Origin: Eledone cirrhosa
Lineage: Eukaryota
Direction: 5' to 3'
DNA length: 64,000 nt
Assembly (NCBI GenBank): GCA_964016885.1
Contig: OZ024747.1
Location: 31,434,001-31,498,000 of the forward strand
Shown here: piece after piece, positions 13,507 to 58,250 of the stretch
How the letters are laid out: every line of letters starts with the position of its first letter
How positions within the stretch are numbered: position 1 is the stretch's first letter
The notes under the pieces: generated by a model
What the model was told of the DNA's origin: nothing
Databases searched by the model: none
The model's input: the letters and a program-made list of their open reading frames with translations, nothing else
Position numbers and translations under genes: made by a program

Positions 13507-13548
<42 letters not shown>

Positions 13549-13554
<6 letters not shown>

Positions 13555-14503
13555 ACACAGATACATGCGGACACACACATATACATGAATGCATCCACAC
13601 CCAACCGTGAGTTAAGGGTGCCAACCTCACCGATGTTGCTCAATGAATGACTGGGACAGACCAATCCGGTTGAACCAGACTGAACCAGTATCAGAGTTAA
13701 AAATACATTATGAAGAAAGAAGGAATATTTAGATATAATTAGTAATAAAATGTATCATAAGTCGGCAGACCTCGCAAGGACTCTATATCTTTATGATGTA
13801 TTGTTTTTGTTTATGCCACGAAACTACGTAGTCGAGGAATCTAGGAACAGTTTAGGTATGATACATTTTATTACTAATTATATCTAAATGTTCCTTCTCT
13901 CTTCATAATGTATTTTTAACTCTGATACTGGTTCAGTCTGGTTCAACCGGATTGGTCTGTCCCAGTCATTCATTGAGCAACATCGGTGAGGTTGGCACCC
14001 TTAACTCACGGTTGGGTGTGGATGCATTCATGTATATGTGTGTGTCCGCATGTATCTGTGTGTTTCTAAATATATTGTTAATAACTCCCTCTGGTCGAGT
14101 AATCTTTGAAGTGTGGTGACTGCTGGAAAGCTGCCATTACTCATACTTCTCGCCTCCTTCACCACCTCTTCTACGGCTTCGATATAAATACCCCCTCCGC
14201 CTCCGTCGTATTTTCTTCAGGGTTATAAGAGGCTTAGCTCTGTTTCTCGACCGTTATATCGCGTGACTATCTCCCCCTCCGCCTTTTGGGATTCTTTCTC
14301 ACGTCGTGTAGACGCGTTCTTGAGGCTAGTAAAATGAGGTATCCTCTTGATAAGTCGGCAGACCTCGCAAGGACTCTATATCTTTATGATGTATTGTTTT
14401 TGTTTATGCTACGAAACTACGTAGTCGAGGAATCTAGGAGCAGTTTAGGTATGATACATTTTATTACTAATTATATCTAAATGTTCCTTCTCTCTTCATA
14501 ATG
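13549..14503 (+). mobile_element. Non-coding HHR-bounded element (retrozyme-like or non-autonomous PLE) with an inverted 5' arm
   Basis: 13549-13759 is the reverse complement of 13857-14068; 13757-13910 is repeated directly at 14350-14503; flanked by (TA)n. Confidence 0.75.
14342..14431 (+). ncRNA. Hammerhead ribozyme, U3-A8 core variant with a long loop II
   Basis: tcctc TTGATAA gtcggca ... tgctac GAAA ctacgtag TC gagga. Confidence 0.8.
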
Positions 14504-14570
14504 TGTATATATATATATATATATATTAATTCAAAATATTAACAAAAATAGACATTCGTGTGATCAGGTA

Positions 14571-14637
14571 TATTTTATTATACATATTTCAGAGGTACTG
14601 AGCTATCTTCAACAGTACGTCCTCATCAGATAAAATA
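14571..14637 (-). ncRNA. Hammerhead ribozyme (CTGATGA)
   Basis: Reverse complement: tattttat CTGATGA ggacgtactg..cagtacctct GAAA tatgta TA ataaaata. Confidence 0.78.
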
Positions 14638-14757
14638 AGATGATGCATGACATACCCTGACTTAGTAGATGGTTAAGACTCAGTCATGGCAAATCATTCA
14701 GACTGCCATCACTGAATCTTAACCATCTACTAAGTCAGGGTATGTCATGCATCATCT

Positions 14758-14824
14758 TATTGTATCTGATGAGGATGTACTGTTGAAGATAGCTCAGTAC
14801 CTCTGAAATATGTATAATAAAATA
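14758..14824 (+). ncRNA. Hammerhead ribozyme (CTGATGA), mirror copy
   Basis: tattgtat CTGATGA ggatgtactg..cagtacctct GAAA tatgta TA ataaaata. Confidence 0.75.
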
Positions 14825-14961
14825 TACCTGATCACACGAATGTCTATTTTTGTTAATATTTTGAATTAATATTATAACACTGGAAAACCATTCCTGTGGA
14901 ATGCTTCCAATCTATTGTAAAACTTATTCTTTGATTTATTCATTGAACCTTGTTTAACCTT

Positions 14962-15031: not shown

Positions 15032-15233
15032 GGAACGAGTAGGAACCCGACGGCTGGGCTCAAGCCGTTTCAACGACTAATTCTCGACTAAATTTAGTCC
15101 AGAATTAGCCGTTGAAATGGCTTGAGCCCAGCCGTCGGGTTCCTACTCGTTCCTATTACCCACTCTACTACCCTAAGTATTGAGTACTTTGGTGCGTTTT
15201 GGTCCACCTGGTTCCTTACCACATTTCCTTTGT

Positions 15234-16487: not shown

Positions 16488-16660
16488 TTTTTCAATGTTT
16501 GTACACATAATTGACCTCCAACGCAAGAGACATACAGATACATATATATATATATATATATTGATGTACAGTGGAGTGACATATATTATACTATATTATT
16601 TCTTTATAGCAATTCAAATTCAAAATCAAAATCAAAATCAAAATCAAAATCAACCTACTT

Positions 16661-17443
16661 AAGGCTTTCTTCTCACTCCTGGATAAAAACTTCCCATCTG
16701 GCCACAAGTACCATAGTCTTATAAACAAAAACACCATTAAAATCTCCTACTCTACCACGCCTAACATAGCATACCACATAGCTAGTAGCAATAAAAGAAA
16801 AATTAATACTTACTTCCAACAAACTAAAACACGGCAGGGGGTAAACCTTCAAAACAACATTATATCTGCAAACCCTGATATCAATAGTAATAATAGTAAT
16901 AGCACTAGTGAAATCAATAACGCTGGGAGCGACAACCCCCATAGCTATAAAGCAATACCTAGCAACCAGACTTCTACACAACATAATAACCGGCAGGTTA
17001 ACATCCAAAATAATTGTAACTGTAGATCTAATAGAACCTGCCCTTTAGATAAAAACTGCTTAATCAAGGACATCATATACTCATGCACCGTCATTACTAG
17101 CAACTCTTCTGAAACCTATATAGGCTCTACTTCGAACTGCTTCAAAACCAGATACAATTCACACCTCCATTCTTTCAAAAAACACAGTCTAGCCAACTCC
17201 ACTTCACTATCTAGCTACATACACTATCTAAAAACTAGAAATAGATCTTATACACTTAAATGGGAAGTGATAGGTAAGGCGGCATTGTACAAACCACCTA
17301 ATAAATTCTGTAACCTCTGTCTACTAGAGACCCATACTATAATCTTCTCAAACCATAACCTCCTTAATAAAAAATCGGAAGTGTTTGCATCGTGCCAGCA
17401 CCACTTCCAGCACTCCTTCCAAAACTTTAAACCCAATATATAA
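16661..17443 (+). mobile_element. 5'-truncated PLE: uninterrupted ATG-less frame encoding linker plus GIY-YIG (absent from the ORF track)
   Basis: Manual translation: LLDKNFPSGHKY..KISYSTTPN..CNCRSNRTCPLDKNCL..IIYSC..YIGSTSNCFKTRYNSH..SF..WEVI..CNLCLLE..LLNKKSE..CQH. Confidence 0.88.
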
Positions 17444-31714: not shown

Positions 31715-33343
31715 AAGAGAGAGAATCTAATGTGGGTGATAACATATTTAATTTTAGTTAAAATTTTTTAATAAATAGTTTTTCTTTATTTATTCTTTGT
31801 TGGTGAGTGGAAGAATCAGGGCACTTGTAAAGGAGGAAGATTTTAAAGTTGGGTAGGGTCATTCCTGCACAATCTACAATGTGGCTACTTAAGGGGATTT
31901 TTCTTGTGTTTAAGTCATAGATTTGTTGGCAGTGGATGGTCATTCTTTTGCGTAATGACACCCCCATCTGTCCTATGTACTTATGTTGACAGCCTCCGCA
32001 TGTGATTGCATAGATCTGGTTCTCTGAGTTGCAAATGAAGTTGTTTTCCTCTGTGAAAGTTTGACCATCTTTAAACATGAATTTTTGTTCTTCAATTAAG
32101 TATAGGCATGTGCCACATTTTGTTCTTCCGCATTCTGTTACCATAAGGTTGGAGATTATTTGTTCCAGTGAGAATGTGTTTTAGTGATTTGGGTTGCCTT
32201 TTACTTTTAATGATCTTATGTGTTTTTAGAATTTTTTTCATTTTTTCATCTTTAAATAGAATGGGGAGGTTTTTGTGTAGGAGGTTGGACATTTCGGTGT
32301 TTTGGGGGTTGAACATGGATATATATATGTTAAGTTATTGTTTGTGGTTCTGTGCTTTGGGTTGTTGGGTCGATGAAAATCTGCATGTTTTGTTCTGTCT
32401 ATTTCGTTATTAATTATGTCAAGTGGGAAGACTCTTAAGGTGTGTTTTTTAGTTCTTTGTTCCCATTTAACTGGGTCTGATAGTGCATATACGTTTGGCT
32501 AAATTATAAGGAATGTTAAATTTTGTGTGTCCGTGGGTTTATAAAAGATGTCTGTTTCTATTTTCCCATCTGTTTTTAAAATAAGGATATCCAAGAGTTG
32601 CATTCCATCGTGAATTGTATGTTATTGTTAACGTTGTTTATCATATTTTTGAAAAGAGTGAATGTATTCATGTCTTCCTGCCATAGTATAAAGCAATCGT
32701 CTAGGTATATCTTCCAATTATTTTTGAGATGTGTAAGAAAAGAGTCTCCGAATAATAGAAGATAATAGATAATTGTAGATTTGTTGTTCATGGAATCCCA
32801 TGACTAAGTTGGCGAATGTGGGGGCTACCTTTGTGCCCATTGTAGTACCTGAGATTTGTCGGTATGTTGAATCATTGAAAGTAAAATCTTATTCTGTAAG
32901 ATAAATCTGAGTCCATCAATAATAAATTTTTTCTTGATGAGTGTTGGTATTTCTGATTGGTGAATGTCTAGCCAGCACTGGATTGGCGTTATTCCATAGT
33001 TGTGGGGTATGTTAGTGTAAAGGTTTACTACGTCAAAAGAGACAAGAATAGTGTTTTCACTTACTGTTTTGGGTAGGTGGTTCAGCATATCAAGGTCATC
33101 CCGTATGTAATTCTGTGTATGTTTTAGTAAGGGCTTTAGTAGGATGTCCTGGAAATTGCTAAGTCTGAGTGTTTCACATGCAGGGCCTGCTATAATTGGT
33201 CTGAGTTTTAAGTCTTCTGGTGGTGTTAGTTGTATGTATTTGTTTGTTGAAGTGTCGCATGCATCGTTTATGAGTTTACATTTATGGATCTTCGGTAAGC
33301 CGTAGAAAGCACTCATATTACATTTGAAACGGCTTATGTATTC
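31030..33343 (-). mobile_element. Penelope-like element (Neptune-like), pseudogenised RT plus GIY-YIG, with 3' UTR and a degenerate HHR at 31030-31070
   Basis: FYGLPKIHK, LRPIIAG, SFDVVNLYTNIP, YLDDCF, CG..KCGTC, IYAITC..C..KYIGQ; reverse complement TTGATGA..GAAA ccgg TA. Confidence 0.9.
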
Positions 33344-33483
33344 CAGGGAGATACATTGGCTCCCTACCTTTTTATCATCGTAGTGGACTATTGTATGCGC
33401 CTTGCACTGCAGAGACACCAGGACTCTGGTTTTACTGTAACCAGAGCAGGAGAGTTAAGGCGAAAAAGATATCGGATGCTGAT
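33344..33483 (+). mobile_element. Internal fragment (140 bp) of RTE family C RT
   Basis: QGDTLAPYLFIIVVDY; reverse complement of 3645-3780. Confidence 0.85.
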
Positions 33484-33491
33484 ATATATTC

Positions 33492-33529
<38 letters not shown>

Positions 33530-33532
<3 letters not shown>

Positions 33533-34995
33533 CTGATGTATGTGACTTGGTTGGCCTTTTTATCTTAGACATATTATGTGTTAGATTCCCGGACTTCCAC
33601 ATGGGAATATACCGTGACGATGGACTGACTTTATCACGACCGGTTTAAAAAAGACTTAGCCTTCGCTTCTACCTTCAATCAGTTAGGCCTTAGGATAACA
33701 GTAGCCACCAACCTCTCTAGCATAGATTTCTTAGACATTAATTTAGACCTTCGCACACACACCCACAGACCCTTCCATAAGCTAAACGAGAAACTTAATT
33801 ACATTCACAAGGACTCATGCCACCCTCCCACAGTTTTTAGAAACTTTGTTAAGAATATCAGTACTAGAATTTCAAACCTCTCCTCTAATAAGGCTATCTT
33901 TGACAGGGCGGCACCCTACTATAACACGACGTTGGCTAACAGCGGCTTCTCAGAACCTATCACCTACTCTCCCACTAGCAACAACACCATTAAGAAAAGT
34001 AAGCACATCAATAGACAAACTATCTGGTTCTCTCCTCCCTTCTCACTCAACGTTAAAACCAATGTAGGAAAAAAATTTCTAGCCCTCTTAGATAGACACT
34101 TCCCCATAGGTCATAAATACCGCTCCATCTTTAACTGACACAAAGTAAAACTAGGATACTCCTGCACTAAGAACATGAAGGCCCACATCACCAGCAGCCC
34201 TAGGAGCAACACCCCACCAGGGTGCTCTTGCCGTAACCCTGAAGCTTGCCCCCTTCAACAGCAATGCAACACACCAACAGTAATCTATGAAGCTGTGGTC
34301 ACTGCCAACCGACCAAATGAACCACAGGAGGTCAAATCCTATGTGGGCATGGCGGAGGGCCGATTCAAGGAGCGTTTCCTGAACCACCAGTCTACCTTCA
34401 GATACCCGGATAGACGTTCACCCACGAAACTCGCGAGCCATGTATGGTCCCTCAAGGACTCAAGTATAGGCTACTCCATTCAATGGAAAGCCATCACTAA
34501 GTCCAAGCCATACGCAAGGGGAAATCTGACGTGTAGCTTATGTATTGACGAACGAATAACTATCCTAAAGAGATTACGCAATAGTAATTGTCTAAACTCG
34601 AGAAGTGAATTTTTCACACGTTGTCCACACGTCAGCAAACATCTATTGCATAACTACAAGGCTCCGGACTGATTCTTTGTAATTTTATTTTTAATTTTTT
34701 TAAATTTTATTTTCAACCTAAAAACTTTCCAGACTTTCGCAGTTATCTCCCTTACACCTCCCGCACGCAGTCTAGTATTGCCTGTGTGAAGTGACAGAGT
34801 TTCTGTGCATGCGCGTTCATACGGTTGTCCTTCCTGTTCCTATAACCATACACATCTTGAGCTGAGGATCCGCGAAGGTGAAACAATTGTTCTCGGTATG
34901 GTGAACTATCTGTTGTGTAACCACTTCTACCTAACTCGTCCCTTGGACTGAGTGCTCTACCACTATGGATATTACCTTCCAGTGTTCCACCACTA
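33530..34995 (+). mobile_element. 5'-truncated PLE (Nematis-like): RT C-terminus, GIY-YIG and pLTR
   Basis: CDLVGLFIL, GIYRDDGL, IWFSPPFS..KTNVGKKFL, CSCRNPEACPL, VIYEA..YVGMAE..FKERF..H, LNSRSE..CPH. Confidence 0.92.
34858..34895 (+). ncRNA. Minimal hammerhead in a PLE pLTR
   Basis: tgag CTGAGGA t cc gcgaa gg t GAAA caattg TT ctcg, about 190 nt after the GIY-YIG stop. Confidence 0.8.
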
Positions 34996-36936: not shown

Positions 36937-37520
36937 ATAATGAGAGGTCTACAAATATATGTGTATACATACATATACATGTATATATAAACATATATTT
37001 TTCACAAGTATGTGAGATTGTATGTTGACGACCTTAACTTGTGAAAAATATATGTTTATATATACATGTATATGTATGTATACACATATATTTGTATACC
37101 TCTCATTATTTTCTCTAACTCCCTCACGGTAGAGTAACCACGGAAGTATAGTGACTGCTTTCAAGCAAACACTCTATACACTTCTAGTCAACCTTACCAC
37201 CCTTCTGTAGCCTAGGTATCATATCAATATCTCCCTCCGCCTGCTGAGATATTTTCACTGCTACAAGGGATTAATCCCCTTTCTTGACCGGTGTATCATG
37301 TGATAGAGTCTCCCTCCACCTTTCTCAGATTTTCTTGCATGCTACGGATGTATGTAGTTAGGGCTCTTCCCTGAGGTGCTCTCTTGATAAGCTGGCTTAC
37401 CTCACAACAATGTTACATATCTATGATATAACATTTTTGCATAGTGACCAGCGAAACTATACAGTCGGGACTAAAGAAAAAGATAGGTATATTTTATCTA
37501 TTATTCCTTTTTATAATATT
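36937..37520 (+). mobile_element. Diverged homolog of the 13549-14503 element with an inverted 5' arm
   Basis: Arms 36937-37009 / 37037-37109; shared motifs aactccctc..ggt.gagtaa, gtgactgct, ccctccgcct, tttct.gaccg. Confidence 0.72.
37380..37470 (+). ncRNA. Hammerhead ribozyme, U3-A8 variant with a long loop II
   Basis: tctc TTGATAA gctgg ... ccagc GAAA ctatacag TC ggga. Confidence 0.78.
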
Positions 37521-42649: not shown

Positions 42650-43056
42650 ATGAAGGAATTGTGCTAAGGAACCAGATGGACCACAACGCACCAGAGTACT
42701 CAATACTTAGGGTAGTAGAGTGGGTAATAGGTAAAAGTATGACCCCGACGGCAGAGCTCAAGCCGTTTCGACGGCTATTTCAAGACTAAATTAGAATTTT
42801 TAGCCTGGTGAATAAATAGCCGAACTTGTCAAGTGGCTATTTATTCACTTGTCATGTTCGGCTGTTTATTCACCAGGCTAAAAATCCTAATTTAGTCCTG
42901 AAATAGCCGTCGAAACGGCTTGAGCTCTGCCGTCGAGATCATACTTTTTCTTATATATATATATATAATCACTATTTTAAAACCGATAGCATATGGTCTT
43001 CAAAATGTTTTTAATTAAGCATACGGTATATTGCCAAAGATACTATACATACATTC

Positions 43057-47705: not shown

Positions 47706-47954
47706 CCTACCTCACAATTTCCCTCCCCCCCACCCCCGCACACCACCATAGTCTATTCGACCAATCAAACCTAGCATGCCATTTCCACTGCTGCTGCTGC
47801 TACTACCTGCCTAACTAACTCTCTCCTCCTCTGGCGCATCCCAACACACCCTGCCATTACCCCACCACCACTGTCCTTCTAGCCCTCAATTTTCCCACCG
47901 TTATGGATGGATGAGCTGGGAATACACGAGCAACTCTGAATCAATAGATGAAAT

Positions 47955-50900
47955 ATGAATCTGCGAGCTACCAAGCACCCACGTGAAGCGCCAACCCAGA
48001 GACCCTCCCCTACGAGTGTCGACAAATGCCCAAAACTCCGAGTTGGTACCATCAATGTAGGCTCAATGAAAGGAAGAGCAGGAGAAATCGTAGAAATGCT
48101 AGAGCGAAAGGAAGTTGATGTATGCTGTGTGCAAGAGACTAGATGGAGAGGAGGGTCTGCTAGAGTCCTTGTAGGAAAAAGCCAGTGCTACAAATTTTTC
48201 TGGGTGGGAAATGACGATGGGATGGGTGGTGTAGGTATACTATTAGCTGACAAGTGGGTAGATAAAGTAATCTCAGTGTACAGGGTAAATGCAAGAATCA
48301 TTAAACTCAGACTAGTCCTGAATAAGACAATTACCACAATAATATCAGCTTACGCACCCCAATCGGGGCTGCCAGACGAACTTAAGGATAGGTTTTACGA
48401 GTCCCTAATACACACTACTGCTCTAACAGACGACAAGGACTTCCTAATCATTGCAGGAGATTTTAACGGACACGTAGGTAAACACTGCGACGGCTTCAAT
48501 AGAGTACATGGAGGCCATGGAGTTGGCACAAGGAATGAGGAAGGATTCAGACTTCTAGAATTCTGCGACGCCAATGACATGTCGATATGTAACACAAACT
48601 TTAAAAAACCCGACAACCACCTGATCACCTATAGATCAGGGGAGCACTCTAGTCAGTTAGATTTTATCCTCATCAGAGGACGTGACAGATGGACGGTCGT
48701 AAACACAAAAGCCTTCCCTAGTGAGGAATGTACATCCCAACATAGCTTAGTTGTCAGCGACCTCACGGTCAGAACTAGACGAGCCCTGAAACAGAGGCCA
48801 ACCTGGAGAAGAAAGATCTGGAAGCTGAAAGTCCCCTCAACCAGTAACAGATTTAAAGATATTTTACTCAACGCCTACGACAGTAAAGAAGAACAGATAG
48901 AGACATTTAACGTAGAAGAGAACTGGGAGTTCCTAAAAAATAACTTACTAGAGGCGACGGATGAGGTTTGTGGCTGGAGTAAGACCTCAAGCAGGAGGAG
49001 AGTGACTTGGTGGTGGAACAATAAGGTAGATGAGGCAGTCAAGGCCAAGAGACAGGCATGGAAAGAATGGAAGAACGGGGGGAGCAGGGTACATTACATA
49101 GAGACCAAGAGGGAAGCTAGGCGACAAGTATACTTAGCTAGGAGGGAAGCAGAGGATAGAAAATTCAAGCATGTTTTACAACGTGAGGACCAGAAACAGG
49201 AGGTATTCAAGATTGCGAGGCAGTGTGTCAGAGATAGTTGTGATGTCATTGGAGAGAAGTGTATCCGGAATGATAAAGGTGAGCTTGCCCTCACAAGTGC
49301 TGAGAAGAAAGATGCATGGAAGAGTCATTATGATAGATTACTAAATGAGGAGAATGCATGGGAAGAAGAGACCCTACCCCACGTAGACCCTATAGAGGGA
49401 CCAGCAGTACAAGTCAGCGGCAGCGTAGTAAGTAAGGCAATCAGAGATATGAAGATAGGGAAGGCAACCGGTCCATCGGGTATAGCTGCCGAGATGCTGA
49501 AGGCATCTGGGTCTGTAGGTCACACTATAACCACACGTATCGTTAACCAGGTAATACTAGAGGGGGCCATACCAAAAGATTGGTGCAGTAGCATCATTGT
49601 CAACTGCTACAAAGGTAAAGGCGATGCACTAGATAGAGGAAACTATAGAGGTATAAAGTTGATGGACCAGGTCATGAAAGTAACAGAAAGAGTTATAGCA
49701 CAGCTGATTAGGGACCGGGTGAATATAGACGAGATGCAATTTGGGTTTGTTCCAGGGAAAGGCACCACTGATGCGCTCTTCCTTGTGAGGCAATTACAGG
49801 AAAAGTACCTAGCTAAAAGTAAGCCACTCTACTTGGCATTTGTCGACCTTGAGAAAGCCTTTGACAGAGTTCCACGTGCAGTAATCTGGTGGGCTCTTAG
49901 AAAACTAGGAGTAGATGAATGGCTTGTGAAAGCGGTACAAGCCATGTATAGGGGAGCAGTCAGCAAAGTTAGGATTGGCAATGAGTATAGCGAGGAATTT
50001 AGCGTACAGGTTGGGGTCCACCAGGGCTCTGTTCTTAGCCCTCTCCTGTTCATCATAGTCCTGCAGGCAATAACGGAGGAGTTTAAGACCGGATGCCCAT
50101 GGGAACTCCTGTATGCTGATGACCTCGCACTCATAGCTGAATCTATGGTAGAACTAGAGAATAAATTCCAAACCTGGAAGCAGGGACTAGAGAGAAAGGG
50201 CCTCAAAGTCAACATGACAAAGACTAAGGTCCTTATAAGTAGACGAGAAAACAGAACCCAGATCCCCTCAGGGAAATGGCCTTGCTCAGTATGTAGGAAA
50301 GGTGTAGGTAGGAACTCCATTCTTTGCCCCAAATGCAAACAATGGGTACACAAGAGATGTAGCAGGATCTCAGGAAGCTTAATTAAGAATGTAGGATTCA
50401 CATGCAGCAGCTGTGCTGAAACAGCAAGCAAACAGCCACAGGAAACAAGTACCACCAATCTCTGGGAGGGCCCTGTAGAAACAGTAGACAGCTTCTGCTA
50501 CCTAGGTGACCGAATTAGCAACGGAGGTGGGTGCTCAGAAAGTACAATAACTAGGGTAAGAACGGGATGGAAGAAGTTTAGGGAACTACTACCACTGCTA
50601 GCTGCAAAAGGCTTCTCCCTCAGAATGAAAGGCAGACTGTATGATGCGTGTATCCGAACAGCGATGTTGCATGGTAGTGAGACCTGGGCGCTGAAGGTGG
50701 AAGACTTACGTAGATTAGAGAGAAACGAAGCCTGCATGCTCCGATGGATGTGTAACAGTAATATACGTGAACGACAAAGCATAAATGAATTGAGAGAGAG
50801 ACTGAGCATAAGAGGAATCAAATGCTGCGTGCAGGAGAGGCGGTTACGCTGGTATGGACATGTGATGCGTATGAAGGATGACAGCTGCATAAAAAGGTGC

Positions 50901-51074
50901 AGAGCACTAGAAGTTGATGGAAACCGCGGAGTGGGGAGACCCAAGATGACTTGGGATGAGGTGATAAAAGCCGACCTTACCCAACTACACCTCTCAAAGT
51001 CAATGACACACGACCGTGACTTCTGGCGTCACGCAGTAATACAGGGTACCCGACCTCCCATGGGTACATGCTGA
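47955..51074 (+). CDS. RTE ORF: APE endonuclease, reverse transcriptase and PHD-like C4HC3 zinc finger (1039 aa)
   Basis: GTINVG, VQET, AYAP, GDFN, DFIL, QH; KGKGD, NYRGI, QFGF, FVDLEKAFD, QGSVLSP, YADD; CSVC..CPKC..H..C..CSSC; LHGSETW, RRLRWYGH. Confidence 0.97.
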   Translation: MNLRATKHPREAPTQRPSPTSVDKCPKLRVGTINVGSMKGRAGEIVEMLERKEVDVCCVQETRWRGGSARVLVGKSQCYKFFWVGNDDGMGGVGILLADKWVDKVISVYRVNARIIKLRLVLNKTITTIISAYAPQSGLPDELKDRFYESLIHTTALTDDKDFLIIAGDFNGHVGKHCDGFNRVHGGHGVGTRNEEGFRLLEFCDANDMSICNTNFKKPDNHLITYRSGEHSSQLDFILIRGRDRWTVVNTKAFPSEECTSQHSLVVSDLTVRTRRALKQRPTWRRKIWKLKVPSTSNRFKDILLNAYDSKEEQIETFNVEENWEFLKNNLLEATDEVCGWSKTSSRRRVTWWWNNKVDEAVKAKRQAWKEWKNGGSRVHYIETKREARRQVYLARREAEDRKFKHVLQREDQKQEVFKIARQCVRDSCDVIGEKCIRNDKGELALTSAEKKDAWKSHYDRLLNEENAWEEETLPHVDPIEGPAVQVSGSVVSKAIRDMKIGKATGPSGIAAEMLKASGSVGHTITTRIVNQVILEGAIPKDWCSSIIVNCYKGKGDALDRGNYRGIKLMDQVMKVTERVIAQLIRDRVNIDEMQFGFVPGKGTTDALFLVRQLQEKYLAKSKPLYLAFVDLEKAFDRVPRAVIWWALRKLGVDEWLVKAVQAMYRGAVSKVRIGNEYSEEFSVQVGVHQGSVLSPLLFIIVLQAITEEFKTGCPWELLYADDLALIAESMVELENKFQTWKQGLERKGLKVNMTKTKVLISRRENRTQIPSGKWPCSVCRKGVGRNSILCPKCKQWVHKRCSRISGSLIKNVGFTCSSCAETASKQPQETSTTNLWEGPVETVDSFCYLGDRISNGGGCSESTITRVRTGWKKFRELLPLLAAKGFSLRMKGRLYDACIRTAMLHGSETWALKVEDLRRLERNEACMLRWMCNSNIRERQSINELRERLSIRGIKCCVQERRLRWYGHVMRMKDDSCIKRCRALEVDGNRGVGRPKMTWDEVIKADLTQLHLSKSMTHDRDFWRHAVIQGTRPPMGTC

Positions 51075-56013: not shown

Positions 56014-57068
56014 GTAATAATAATAAAATTGAAGACTAAAATCCAAAGAGGGCTCGATAAGGATAAATATATATCGAATATATAAGAACTGTAGAGCAAA
56101 TATTTATTAAATAACAGATTAAAGTTTAAGCAAAGAATCGCTGCTTTCACCCTTAACGGGATCTTCTGAAACTAACAAAGTCAATCTGTAAACGCAGAAC
56201 TGGATATTTCAAAAAACGTTGCAACCGGAGGAAGACAGGAAGACGATACTTTGGTTCGTGAAAACGTTCGCTGGCAAAGAACGGGAAAAAACGAATAATA
56301 CGTCATTAATAGGAGCGGTGAAAAACAATTACGCGCAAAGACAGAACCACGTTTATGGTATAAAAGAGGTCGTAGACTAATATTCTCTTAGTTCTCTGGC
56401 AATGAACGAAAAAACGAAGATAATAAGTCATATGTGGAGCGTGGAGAACAATAGCACGCAAAACCAAAACCAAAACCATGTAAATGGTATAGCAGAAGTC
56501 GTAGACTAAAATTCTAACTAGGAGACCAAATGAATCTCCGCTACAGAGTTAACAACAAAGTAAATAAATACAATACAGAAGTAATAGAAATAAATAAATA
56601 TGTACACGCAAACAAATACGTACATACACAAGCATACGCAAAACCTTACCATAAGTATACAAAACCACGCACATATATATGTGTGTGTGTGTATGCTTGT
56701 GTACAAATAAATAAATAATTGTTTCTACTTTAGGCACAAGGCCAGCAATTATCCAGTGCATTACTGGTACTTTATTTTATCGACCCCGTAAGGATGAAAG
56801 GCAAAGTCAACCTCGGCGGGATTTGAACTCAGATCGTAGAGGGACGTAACTATGCTGGAAAGCATGGCGTCCGACCCTCTACCGATACTGCCAATCCACC
56901 GCCCTTACAAATAAATAAATAATGAGAGAATATTTGTCTTCCTCCGGTTGCAACGTTTTTTGAAATATCCAGTTCTGCGTTTACAGATTGACTTTGTTAG
57001 TTTCAGAAGATCCCGTTAAGGGTGAAAGCAGCGATTCTTTGCTTAAACTGTAATCTGTTATTTAATAA

Positions 57069-57071
<3 letters not shown>
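56013..57071. mobile_element. PLE pLTR cassette with 137-bp inverted arms, each carrying a CAGAAGA hammerhead (56123-56173 -, 56999-57049 +)
   Basis: agttt CAGAAGA t ccc gttaa ggg t GAAA gca gcgattctt tgc TT aaact; 56100-56237 is the reverse complement of 56935-57071. Confidence 0.75.
56720..56905 (-). mobile_element. SINE family 1, full length with an 18-bp TSD
   Basis: A box tggcagtatcgg, B box gagttcaaatcc; TSD tacaaataaataaataat at 56702 and 56906; core recalls the Meta-type SINE domain (unverified). Confidence 0.92.
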
Positions 57072-57100
<29 letters not shown>

Positions 57101-57116
57101 GTATATATATATATAG

Positions 57117-57166
<50 letters not shown>

Positions 57167-57189
57167 ATATATATAGATATATATATATA

Positions 57190-58250
57190 TCTACCAAATT
57201 ACCATTCCTAGATATAATGGTAATCAAAAACGACACCACCATTACCACGGATATATATTATAAACACGCAGACACCCATCAATATCTGAATTTTAAGTCG
57301 TACCATCCACCTCATACAAAACGCAACATCCCATACTGCCTAGCCAGAAGCATTTATACCATTGTAGAAGACACGAATACCAGGAACAAATGCCTATCAG
57401 AACTGTGAGAATATTTGCTCAAACAAAAATACCTATCTCTACTCATAGAACAATACAAAAAATTAGGCCAACCCAAGGAAGAAGAAACCAAGAACTGGCC
57501 ATACCATTTATAATGACACACAACCCATGTCACCAGAATATCTTCAACATTGCTCAAAGTAATGAATGAAGAGGTTTAATCACAGACCGATCTTTGACTC
57601 TTAGTAAAAGACAGCTGAAAAATTTGAAGCAATTACTAACAAAGGCAAAGTTTGACCTTAACAACAAAGACCAATCATTCACTGTATCTAAAAGTCGATG
57701 TGGCACATGTCAATCCATACACACTGGTCAATATATGAACACAAAAACTGGAAAAATATTCCCAAATGCAAATATGAACTGCAAAAGCAGAAATCTAACT
57801 TACTGCATTAAATGCCCGAATTGTGAAGAACTATATGTCGGTCAAACTGGAAATGTGCTATCGGAACGTGCACGGGTGCACCAACAGCAAATCAGAGACC
57901 CAAATGTCCGTCAGATACCCCTGAGTAACCATCTAGCAACATGTGATCAGAAAATATTTATAATATTTCCATTCTACAAATTACACAGCCCAAGTAAAAT
58001 CAAGAGAAAAATTAAAGGAAAAGAATTTTTTTGATAAATTCCAAGCCAAGCTAAATGAACAATAATAATGCTTAGGGGTATTACACCTACTATGACTACG
58101 CCTACGACCATGTCGACTACCACCACTAACAACAACATCAACAATAATAATAATAAAAGTGATGTTGATGGTGATGATTACTGAAGATCTTTTATAAAAA
58201 CCCTAGAAAAGGCTATTTTCATCATTTCTAAAAATAGCAAAACAATTGAT
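57190..58250 (+). mobile_element. Neptune-like PLE fragment: RT thumb, GIY-YIG and a degenerate HHR (58178-58250)
   Basis: [31 protein letters not shown]; CGTC..C.SRNL.YCI.C..C..YVGQT. Confidence 0.88.

What the first reader, a model, noticed from the sequence alone, without database searches (positions are those of the whole stretch)
36937..37520. Diverged homolog whose HHR covaries: U3-A8 core and a large loop II insertion
Seen: both 14342-14431 and 37380-37470 read TTGATAA instead of CTGATGA. Their stems differ in sequence yet still pair (stem II gtcggca/tgctac vs gctgg/ccagc; stem I tcctc/gagga vs tctc/ggga), and both carry about 50 nt in loop II. Upstream pyrimidine-rich motifs are conserved in order. 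Established: positions 3 and 8 form a Watson-Crick pair in the active hammerhead, so U3-A8 is compensatory. Inference: selection has maintained catalysis in an old non-coding family that CUGANGA-based searches would miss.
Basis: partly seen in the sequence, partly recalled or inferred. Interest (0 to 1): 0.75.

Follow-up and report, generated by a model that had tools for sequence, protein, structure and literature searches.

The report
Pseudoknotted hammerhead in Penelope-type jumping repeat
This is one decayed copy of a protein-free repeat, likely spread by Penelope-type jumping genes, whose family has thousands of copies in this animal genome and carries an RNA motif predicted to cut itself; its swapped core pair is already known, and the new part is a predicted extra knot that recurs with different letters in several repeat families.

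Summary
Both sites are type I hammerhead (HHR) motifs with a U3-A8 core, inside two ~63%-identical families of ~590-nt non-coding tandem monomers (7,515 motif matches genome-wide, 0 in control). Copies end at two fixed points past the cleavage site, sit in (TA)n and often carry an inverted arm: the Penelope-like element (PLE) footprint. This is a non-LTR retrozyme. U3-A8 is published, including in PLE hammerheads, and is nearly fixed in this family, so it does not covary here. The 'loop II insertion' is not a loop: it is an internal loop plus a covarying 15-bp hairpin, and the internal loop (ACCUCA) can pair with UGAGGU just 5' of helix I. Four canonical-core families show that pseudoknot in the same register with other letters. 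Helix III is a covarying 8-nt palindrome, implying dimers. Selection shows between subfamilies, not among copies; the 37-kb copy has a broken palindrome. No cleavage, RNA or helper element was shown. The scan noted this family and class before on other DNA of this genome.

The parts
36937..37038 (-). Inverted, 5'-truncated arm (monomer positions ~127-228); its outer end is the distal fixed end, abutting (TA)n; no HHR
   Evidence: L001
37037..37520 (+). Direct arm: 5'-truncated family-B monomer (from position ~156) through the HHR to the proximal fixed end (~+55-60), running into (TA)n
37372..37377 (+). 5' strand of predicted pseudoknot (TGAGGT), 2 nt before helix I
37380..37390 (+). Helix I 5' strand (TCTC) and core TTGATAA (U3...A8)
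37391..37452 (+). Bipartite helix II: IIa 37391-95/37448-52; internal loop with pseudoknot strand ACCTCA 37399-404; distal hairpin IIb 37405-439; 3' internal-loop strand 37440-47
   Evidence: folds; pair counts
37453..37470 (+). GAAA, helix III CTATACAG (family palindrome CTGTACAG, broken here at 37459), predicted cleavage after C37466, helix I 3' strand GGGA
37484..37492 (+). Splice-donor-like TAGGTATAT 18-26 nt after the cleavage site; a GGTA at +15 to +22 is present in all 8 long-helix-II groups examined
   Evidence: function untested
13543..14504 (.). Family-A insertion: inverted arm 13543-13759 (-) and direct arm 13757-14504 (+) of about 1.26 monomers of 593 nt, both outer ends in (TA)n
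   Evidence: L031
14335..14431 (+). Family-A HHR: pseudoknot strands TGAGGT 14335-40 / ACCTCG 14362-67, core 14347-53, IIb 14368-402, palindromic helix III CTACGTAG, predicted cleavage after 14426

Best explanation
This is a truncated, two-armed copy of a ~590-nt non-coding tandem repeat (a non-LTR retrozyme) likely copied into (TA)n by a Penelope-type reverse transcriptase/endonuclease supplied in trans, whose U3-A8 hammerhead is predicted to cut multimeric transcripts as a dimer, likely braced by a helix I-helix II pseudoknot. Shown in the sequence: monomer, tandem arrays, two fixed 3' ends, inverted arms, (TA)n flanks, covarying helices, palindromic helix III, no PLE-like ORF. Inferred: a tandem locus is transcribed; two HHRs exchange their palindromic helix III strands and cut after GUC to release unit-length RNA, which may be ligated into a circle as in other animal retrozymes; the pseudoknot would replace the usual loop I-loop II contact that a 50-nt helix II cannot make; a PLE protein nicks AT-rich DNA and starts reverse transcription at two internal RNA sites (+60 and +228-231 in B, +80 and +243-247 in A), one for each arm. 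Selection would act on the few source templates, so structure is kept between subfamilies while single copies, this one included, decay.
For: Monomers 585-593 nt in tandem; 29 of 31 (A, 23 loci) and 48 of 48 (B, 29 loci) free 3' ends fall in two classes, 71 of 79 abut (TA)n, and 22 of 25 two-strand loci carry exactly one end of each class; contigs of a public run show loose (TA)n ends at the same two places. This matches the PLE inverted-arm/tail description (PMC8557442) and the two internal RT starts that define the tail in vitro (PMC11167929). Pair counts: helix I 3 of 5, IIb 9 of 15, helix III 2 of 5 pairs change on both sides; the central, adjacent palindrome pair covaries CG 13 / UA 13, which only an intermolecular helix explains; family self-duplex -13.4 and -12.9 kcal/mol. 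Pseudoknot: 86% of cells paired within the family; 6-7 bp complementarity in the same register in 5 of 5 long-helix-II families, the true pairing best of 120 permutations, joint shuffle p 1e-4.
Against: No cleavage assay and no transcript evidence. No helper PLE sharing sequence with the monomer was found (two autonomous families examined have short C3-G8 HHRs). The pseudoknot strands are conserved rather than covarying inside the family (2 of 6 pairs, one sequence each); the cross-family windows were chosen after seeing the pattern, three of the five families (F, G, H) have purine/pyrimidine-tract strands that cross-pair and may be related, only 2 of 5 are individually significant, and 1 of 8 short-helix-II controls also scored p 0.004. 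Control (a) ignores relatedness. HHR cleavage was dispensable for insertion by the anole PLE in vitro (PMC11167929), and one A8U variant occurs in two tandem units, so a presumably dead core may still be copied.
Confidence: 0.72

Rival explanations
1. Same element, but the hammerhead fold serves as a binding/folding platform for the PLE protein and cleavage is slow, protein-assisted or irrelevant to spread.
For: PLE minimal HHRs cleave poorly (PMC4209133); the anole PLE HHR needs the protein and is not needed for insertion in vitro (PMC11167929); no deficit of A8 variants among copies.
Against: All catalytic positions and the GUC site persist across subfamilies about 63% identical while N7 and the stems change (partly ascertained by core-bearing patterns); other animal retrozymes do self-cleave (PMC7229834).
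Confidence: 0.15
2. The HHR is real but the pseudoknot is not: UGAGG and CCUCA are conserved for other reasons, or pair only as a local alternative hairpin that switches the ribozyme off.
For: Little within-family covariation; post hoc windows and one positive control family; the same pairing could close a 5' hairpin across the core before helix I and II 3' strands are made.
Against: Same register with unrelated letters in families A/B, C and F/G/H; helix I-II pseudoknots are a tested rate-enhancing contact in about 40% of HHRs (PMC3088659).
Confidence: 0.2
3. These are solo pLTR remnants of an autonomous PLE, or a satellite spread by DNA-level mechanisms, not a self-contained non-autonomous unit.
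For: PLE ORF fragments are abundant in the window and loci; solo pLTRs carry HHRs.
Against: Units join head to tail with no ORF between them; no blastx match of either monomer to 11 PLE proteins or fragments (best E 0.18); short dispersed arrays with fixed RT-like ends.
Confidence: 0.05

Closest known systems
Metazoan non-LTR retrozymes (Cervera & de la Pena 2020, PMC7229834, passages read; Li, Clavereau & Pollet 2026, bioRxiv 10.64898/2026.07.22.740005, parts 1-2 of 5 read)
   Same: Non-coding, low-GC (37-43%) tandem monomer with one type I HHR per unit, thousands of copies, proposed PLE dependence; 590 nt lies inside the 51-972 bp range of Li et al.
   Different: U3-A8 core, ~50-nt bipartite helix II with predicted pseudoknot rather than 4-bp helix II with loop-loop contact; 8-nt palindrome; explicit two-end PLE signature; circular RNA not shown here.
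PLE-associated hammerheads incl. the U3-A8 variant of Schistosoma Cercyon (PMC4209133, parts 1-2 of 4 read)
   Same: U3-A8 core, short helix I (4-5 bp), longer than usual helix II, palindromic helix III, dimer model.
   Different: There helix II is 7-8 bp and helix III minimal; no pseudoknot or distal hairpin in the text read; no extra nucleotide between A9 and G10.1 here; no linked ORF.
Pseudoknotted hammerheads (Perreault et al. 2011, PMC3088659, passages and section 7 read)
   Same: Watson-Crick helix joining the helix I and helix II sides, in all three HHR types; natural U3-A8.
   Different: Tested examples are microbial type II; here the helix II partner is an internal loop flanked by a further 10-15 bp hairpin, in an animal repeat with dimer-type helix III. 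Their figures and supplements were not seen.
PK hammerhead, PDB 8YDC (PMC11300833, part 1 of 6 read) and type-SGC hammerheads (PMC10085705, passages read)
   Same: Hammerhead core with a pseudoknot.
   Different: In 8YDC the pseudoknot replaces helix II; SGC types are non-circular permutations. Here helix II is intact and the order is plain type I.

Membership tests
Type I hammerhead ribozyme | Core N3 U4 G5 A6 N7 N8 A9 / GAAA / UH with a 3-8 Watson-Crick pair | tested here: met
   U3-A8 in 93 of 97 motifs
Type I hammerhead ribozyme | Three helices around the core supported by compensatory change, G10.1-C11.1 | tested here: met
   (31 hand-picked sequences)
Type I hammerhead ribozyme | Match to an Rfam hammerhead model | tested here: not met
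   no hit at gathering score in 4 loci; none among the 150 of 238 listed window matches; expected for a 50-nt helix II
Type I hammerhead ribozyme | Site-specific self-cleavage | not testable with these tools
   needs an assay
Non-LTR retrozyme | Tandem non-coding monomers, each with a type I HHR | tested here: met
   family level; the 37-kb copy itself holds one HHR only
Non-LTR retrozyme | Expressed as unit-length linear and circular RNA | not testable with these tools
   no run on record as RNA was available
PLE-mobilised element | 5' truncation, inverted arm, optional tail between two fixed 3' ends, AT-rich/microsatellite target | tested here: met
   tail is ~165-170 nt against 30-40 bp in PMC8557442
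PLE-mobilised element | Sequence shared with an identified autonomous PLE | tested here: inconclusive
   none in two families examined; other PLE families not surveyed
Autonomous PLE | RT plus GIY-YIG ORF | tested here: not met
   longest stop-free frames 85 and 72 aa, no PLE match
Pseudoknotted HHR (Perreault type) | 4 or more bp linking the helix I and II sides, with covariation | tested here: inconclusive
   6-7 bp present; covariation across families, weak within family; not assayed

The most novel reading that the evidence does not exclude
A distinct structural subclass of animal hammerheads: helix IIa, an internal loop that pseudoknots with the 5' flank of helix I, a distal hairpin and an 8-nt dimerising palindrome. 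It is used by at least three sequence-unrelated retrozyme lineages with about 10,000 motif matches in one genome, with either U3-A8 or C3-G8 cores, and is invisible to Rfam. The pseudoknot would make these fast dimeric ribozymes, and the distal hairpin could be the handle by which the Penelope protein recruits the RNA.
Probability: 0.5. Interest if true: 0.55.

Novelty: new variant of a known kind. Interest (0 to 1): 0.36.

Why it matters
The element class and the U3-A8 core are known, so the finding as first framed is ordinary. What it adds: (1) a hammerhead architecture with about 10,000 matches in one genome that Rfam misses and short-helix descriptors would likely miss, so ribozyme censuses of animal genomes may be undercounts; (2) a natural series of subfamilies that supplies ready compensatory pairs for testing how PLE-type dimeric hammerheads, usually sluggish in vitro, could be activated; (3) a very young family with two mapped 3' ends, a good substrate for testing whether a Penelope enzyme copies retrozyme RNA.

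Tried and rejected
No RNA holder listed: no evidence either way. One contig of run X6 (kind not on record) joins the monomer end to its start; rejected as evidence of a circle because head-to-tail units exist in the DNA. A second read lay on family B gave no data. C3-G8 members of this family: none of the 100 listed of 174 matches (judged by eye). Further U3-A8 families with other helix III letters: 8 matches against 13 in control, chance level, although three belong to a separate family. Homology of A/B to families C, F, G, H: none by blastn; nhmmer hits rejected because training and targets contained (TA)n runs. Helper PLE: not found. Coding potential rejected. Rfam miRNA hits are (TA)n artefacts. 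A hairpin just 3' of the cleavage site is strong in A and B2 (z -2.1 to -5.7) but not in B, D, E, C, F, G: not claimed as conserved. No covariance model was built. Literature: 7 searches; octopus plus hammerhead gave 4 listings, none on this family by title or abstract. Lunse et al. (PMC5785218), on PLE hammerhead variants, is not held and was not read; it, figures and supplements of the papers read, and repeat libraries could already describe this architecture.

Full report
Observation. The two motifs are as described: type I hammerheads with core UUGAUAA, GAAA, a GUC site, helix I of 4-5 bp and about 50 nt between the core-proximal strands of helix II. The surrounding elements align at 63.6% over 407 nt. 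Rfam lists no hammerhead for the window (150 of 238 matches shown) or for four family loci.

The element. Each copy belongs to a repeat family. The best-scoring relatives are 93-97% identical for the 37-kb copy (family B; 40 scored of 980 candidates) and 98-99% for the 14-kb copy (family A; 40 of 1,875). A motif pattern has 7,515 matches against 0 in control, the 100 listed all of A type; a B-type pattern has 162 against 0. Tandem loci give monomers of 593 nt (A) and 585-593 nt (B) that align end to end at 63%. The longest stop-free frames are 85 and 72 aa, with no match to 11 PLE proteins or fragments. After dropping 7 overlapping A loci and 1 duplicate B locus, the free 3' ends fall at two places after the cleavage site in 29 of 31 (A: about +80, +243-247) and 48 of 48 cases (B: about +60, one at +90, and +217-231); 71 of 79 abut (TA)n; 22 of 25 loci with arms on both strands have exactly one end of each class; 5' ends are scattered. 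Contigs of run X1 show loose (TA)n ends at the same two places. This is the PLE arrangement of truncated tandems, inverted arm and one-sided tail (PMC8557442, passages), and the tail has been tied in vitro to two internal RT start sites (PMC11167929, parts 1-2 of 4). The finding, 36937-37520, is one such two-armed insertion with a single HHR.

The core. U3-A8 is a known, active covariant, found in nature (PMC3088659, passages) and in Schistosoma Cercyon PLEs, where a dedicated descriptor gave ~1,300 hits (PMC4209133). In loci found by DNA similarity, not by core, 56 of 59 A motifs and 37 of 38 B motifs read TTGATAA and none is C3-G8 (overlapping loci counted more than once). None of the 100 listed of 174 long-helix C3-G8 matches is of this family. 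So the pair is fixed, not covarying, in this lineage. Among family-A copies, variants at A8 (12, seven of them U3-G8) are no rarer than at the free position N7 (8): no sign of selection on copies. Between subfamilies N7 and the stems change while the catalytic letters stay, though those sequences were largely found with core-bearing patterns.

Helix II. The insert folds as helix IIa, an internal loop and a distal hairpin IIb. On 31 hand-picked subfamily representatives, 88% of cells pair and 17 of 34 pairs change on both sides (0 of 500 shuffles; slid controls 34-58% paired); IIb has 9 of 15 such pairs, helix I 3 of 5. Only two IIa pairs were counted because a bulge shifts the register between A and B, and subfamilies D and E are poorly aligned in IIb. 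The 5' strand of the internal loop, ACCUCA, is complementary to UGAGGU just before helix I (86% of cells paired; about -8 kcal/mol), but these strands are conserved rather than covarying within the family.

Independent support came from other families. Searches for canonical cores with long helix II found 174 and 2,154 matches (control 12), in further non-coding elements: C (~750 nt), F and G (484-485 nt tandem monomers) and H. All have IIa, internal loop, distal hairpin and an 8-nt palindromic helix III, and all have complementarity at the same register: CGAGTTT/AAACTCG (C), GGAAAAT/GTTTTCC (G), TGGAAA/TTTCCA (H), AAAGA/TCTTT (F). The true pairing of upstream and loop strands is the best of 120 permutations, joint shuffle p 1e-4. 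Against: windows were set after seeing the pattern, F, G and H cross-pair and may be related, only A/B and C are individually significant, and 1 of 8 short-helix controls also scored. The long helix II is therefore not tied to U3-A8. Helix I-II pseudoknots are known to speed cleavage and are predicted in about 40% of hammerheads (PMC3088659, section 7); an internal-loop version with a distal hairpin was not in the passages I read.

Helix III. Family sequences are palindromes: CTACGTAG (A), CTGTACAG (B), CTGCGCAG (D), and CCATGG, CCGATCGG, CTGATCAG, CCGTACGG in the other families. The two central letters, which cannot pair within one strand, covary (CG 13, UA 13). That points to a dimer, as for other PLE and retrozyme hammerheads (PMC4209133; PMC7229834, passages; PMC6765202, passages). 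The 37-kb copy has A for G at 37459, which lowers the self-duplex from -13.4 to -1.0 kcal/mol; with only one HHR in the insertion it is probably a dead copy.

Mechanism. Shown: structure conservation, tandem units, end signature. Inferred: transcription of a tandem source, dimeric cleavage into units, possible circularisation, capture by a PLE protein, nicking at (TA)n and reverse transcription from two internal sites to give two arms. The helper was not found: the two autonomous PLE families examined, one with intact 775-aa frames, carry short C3-G8 hammerheads and share no sequence with the monomers apart from A copies inserted nearby. Cleavage may not be required for insertion (PMC11167929).

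Earlier notes of this scan (AI notes, unchecked, consulted after my reading was written) describe family A and other retrozymes of this genome in the same terms, and one mentions a possible pseudoknot; they are not counted as support.

Verdict. A real, decayed copy of a non-LTR retrozyme with PLE insertion marks. The U3-A8 core is known; the predicted internal-loop pseudoknot architecture shared by several families is a modest new variant that awaits an assay. Interest 0.36.

Noticed in passing
window 37484-37492, about 14446-14454; families C-H in L091-L110, L143-144, L233-262: A splice-donor-like GGTA(T/A) lies 15-22 nt after the predicted cleavage site in all 8 long-helix-II groups. PLEs are known to retain introns near the HHR; no acceptor was sought.
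   Followed up: partly
L033:1843-1914 and B2 loci L131, L147: The first ~70 nt after the cleavage site fold into a long hairpin that sequesters the helix I 3' strand in A and B2 (z -2 to -5.7); weak in B and the others. A possible on/off switch or RT-start signal.
   Followed up: partly
L233-L262 (families F, G), L091-L110 (C), L143-144 (H): More than 2,000 canonical-core hammerheads with the same long helix II design, in ~484-nt tandem and ~750-nt elements.
   Followed up: partly
window 14518-14872: A 355-nt palindrome of another repeat family with canonical C3-G8 hammerheads in both arms, directly beside the family-A copy.
   Followed up: no
window 42740-42854 (-), 15036-15160; L210:191-305, L121, L127, L128: A separate U3-A8 family (TTGACAA/TTGATAA) with a long helix II and a hairpin in helix III, no detected homology to A/B.
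   Followed up: no
L017:2931-3002: A short-helix U3-A8 motif (TTGAAAA ... GAAA CCGG TA) seen 14 times in the fetched loci: U3-A8 occurs in several unrelated lineages of this genome.
   Followed up: no
G000:C5:39920681 and 39921278: The same A8U core change in two tandem units 597 nt apart, suggesting a template with a presumably dead core was still copied.
   Followed up: no
window 33328-34672, 57001-58034, 16610-17443, 32825-33454, 47952-51074: Fragments of several PLE families (GIY-YIG) and a 1,040-aa LINE-type endonuclease/RT frame (label from recall); intact 775-aa PLE frames exist elsewhere in the genome.
   Followed up: partly
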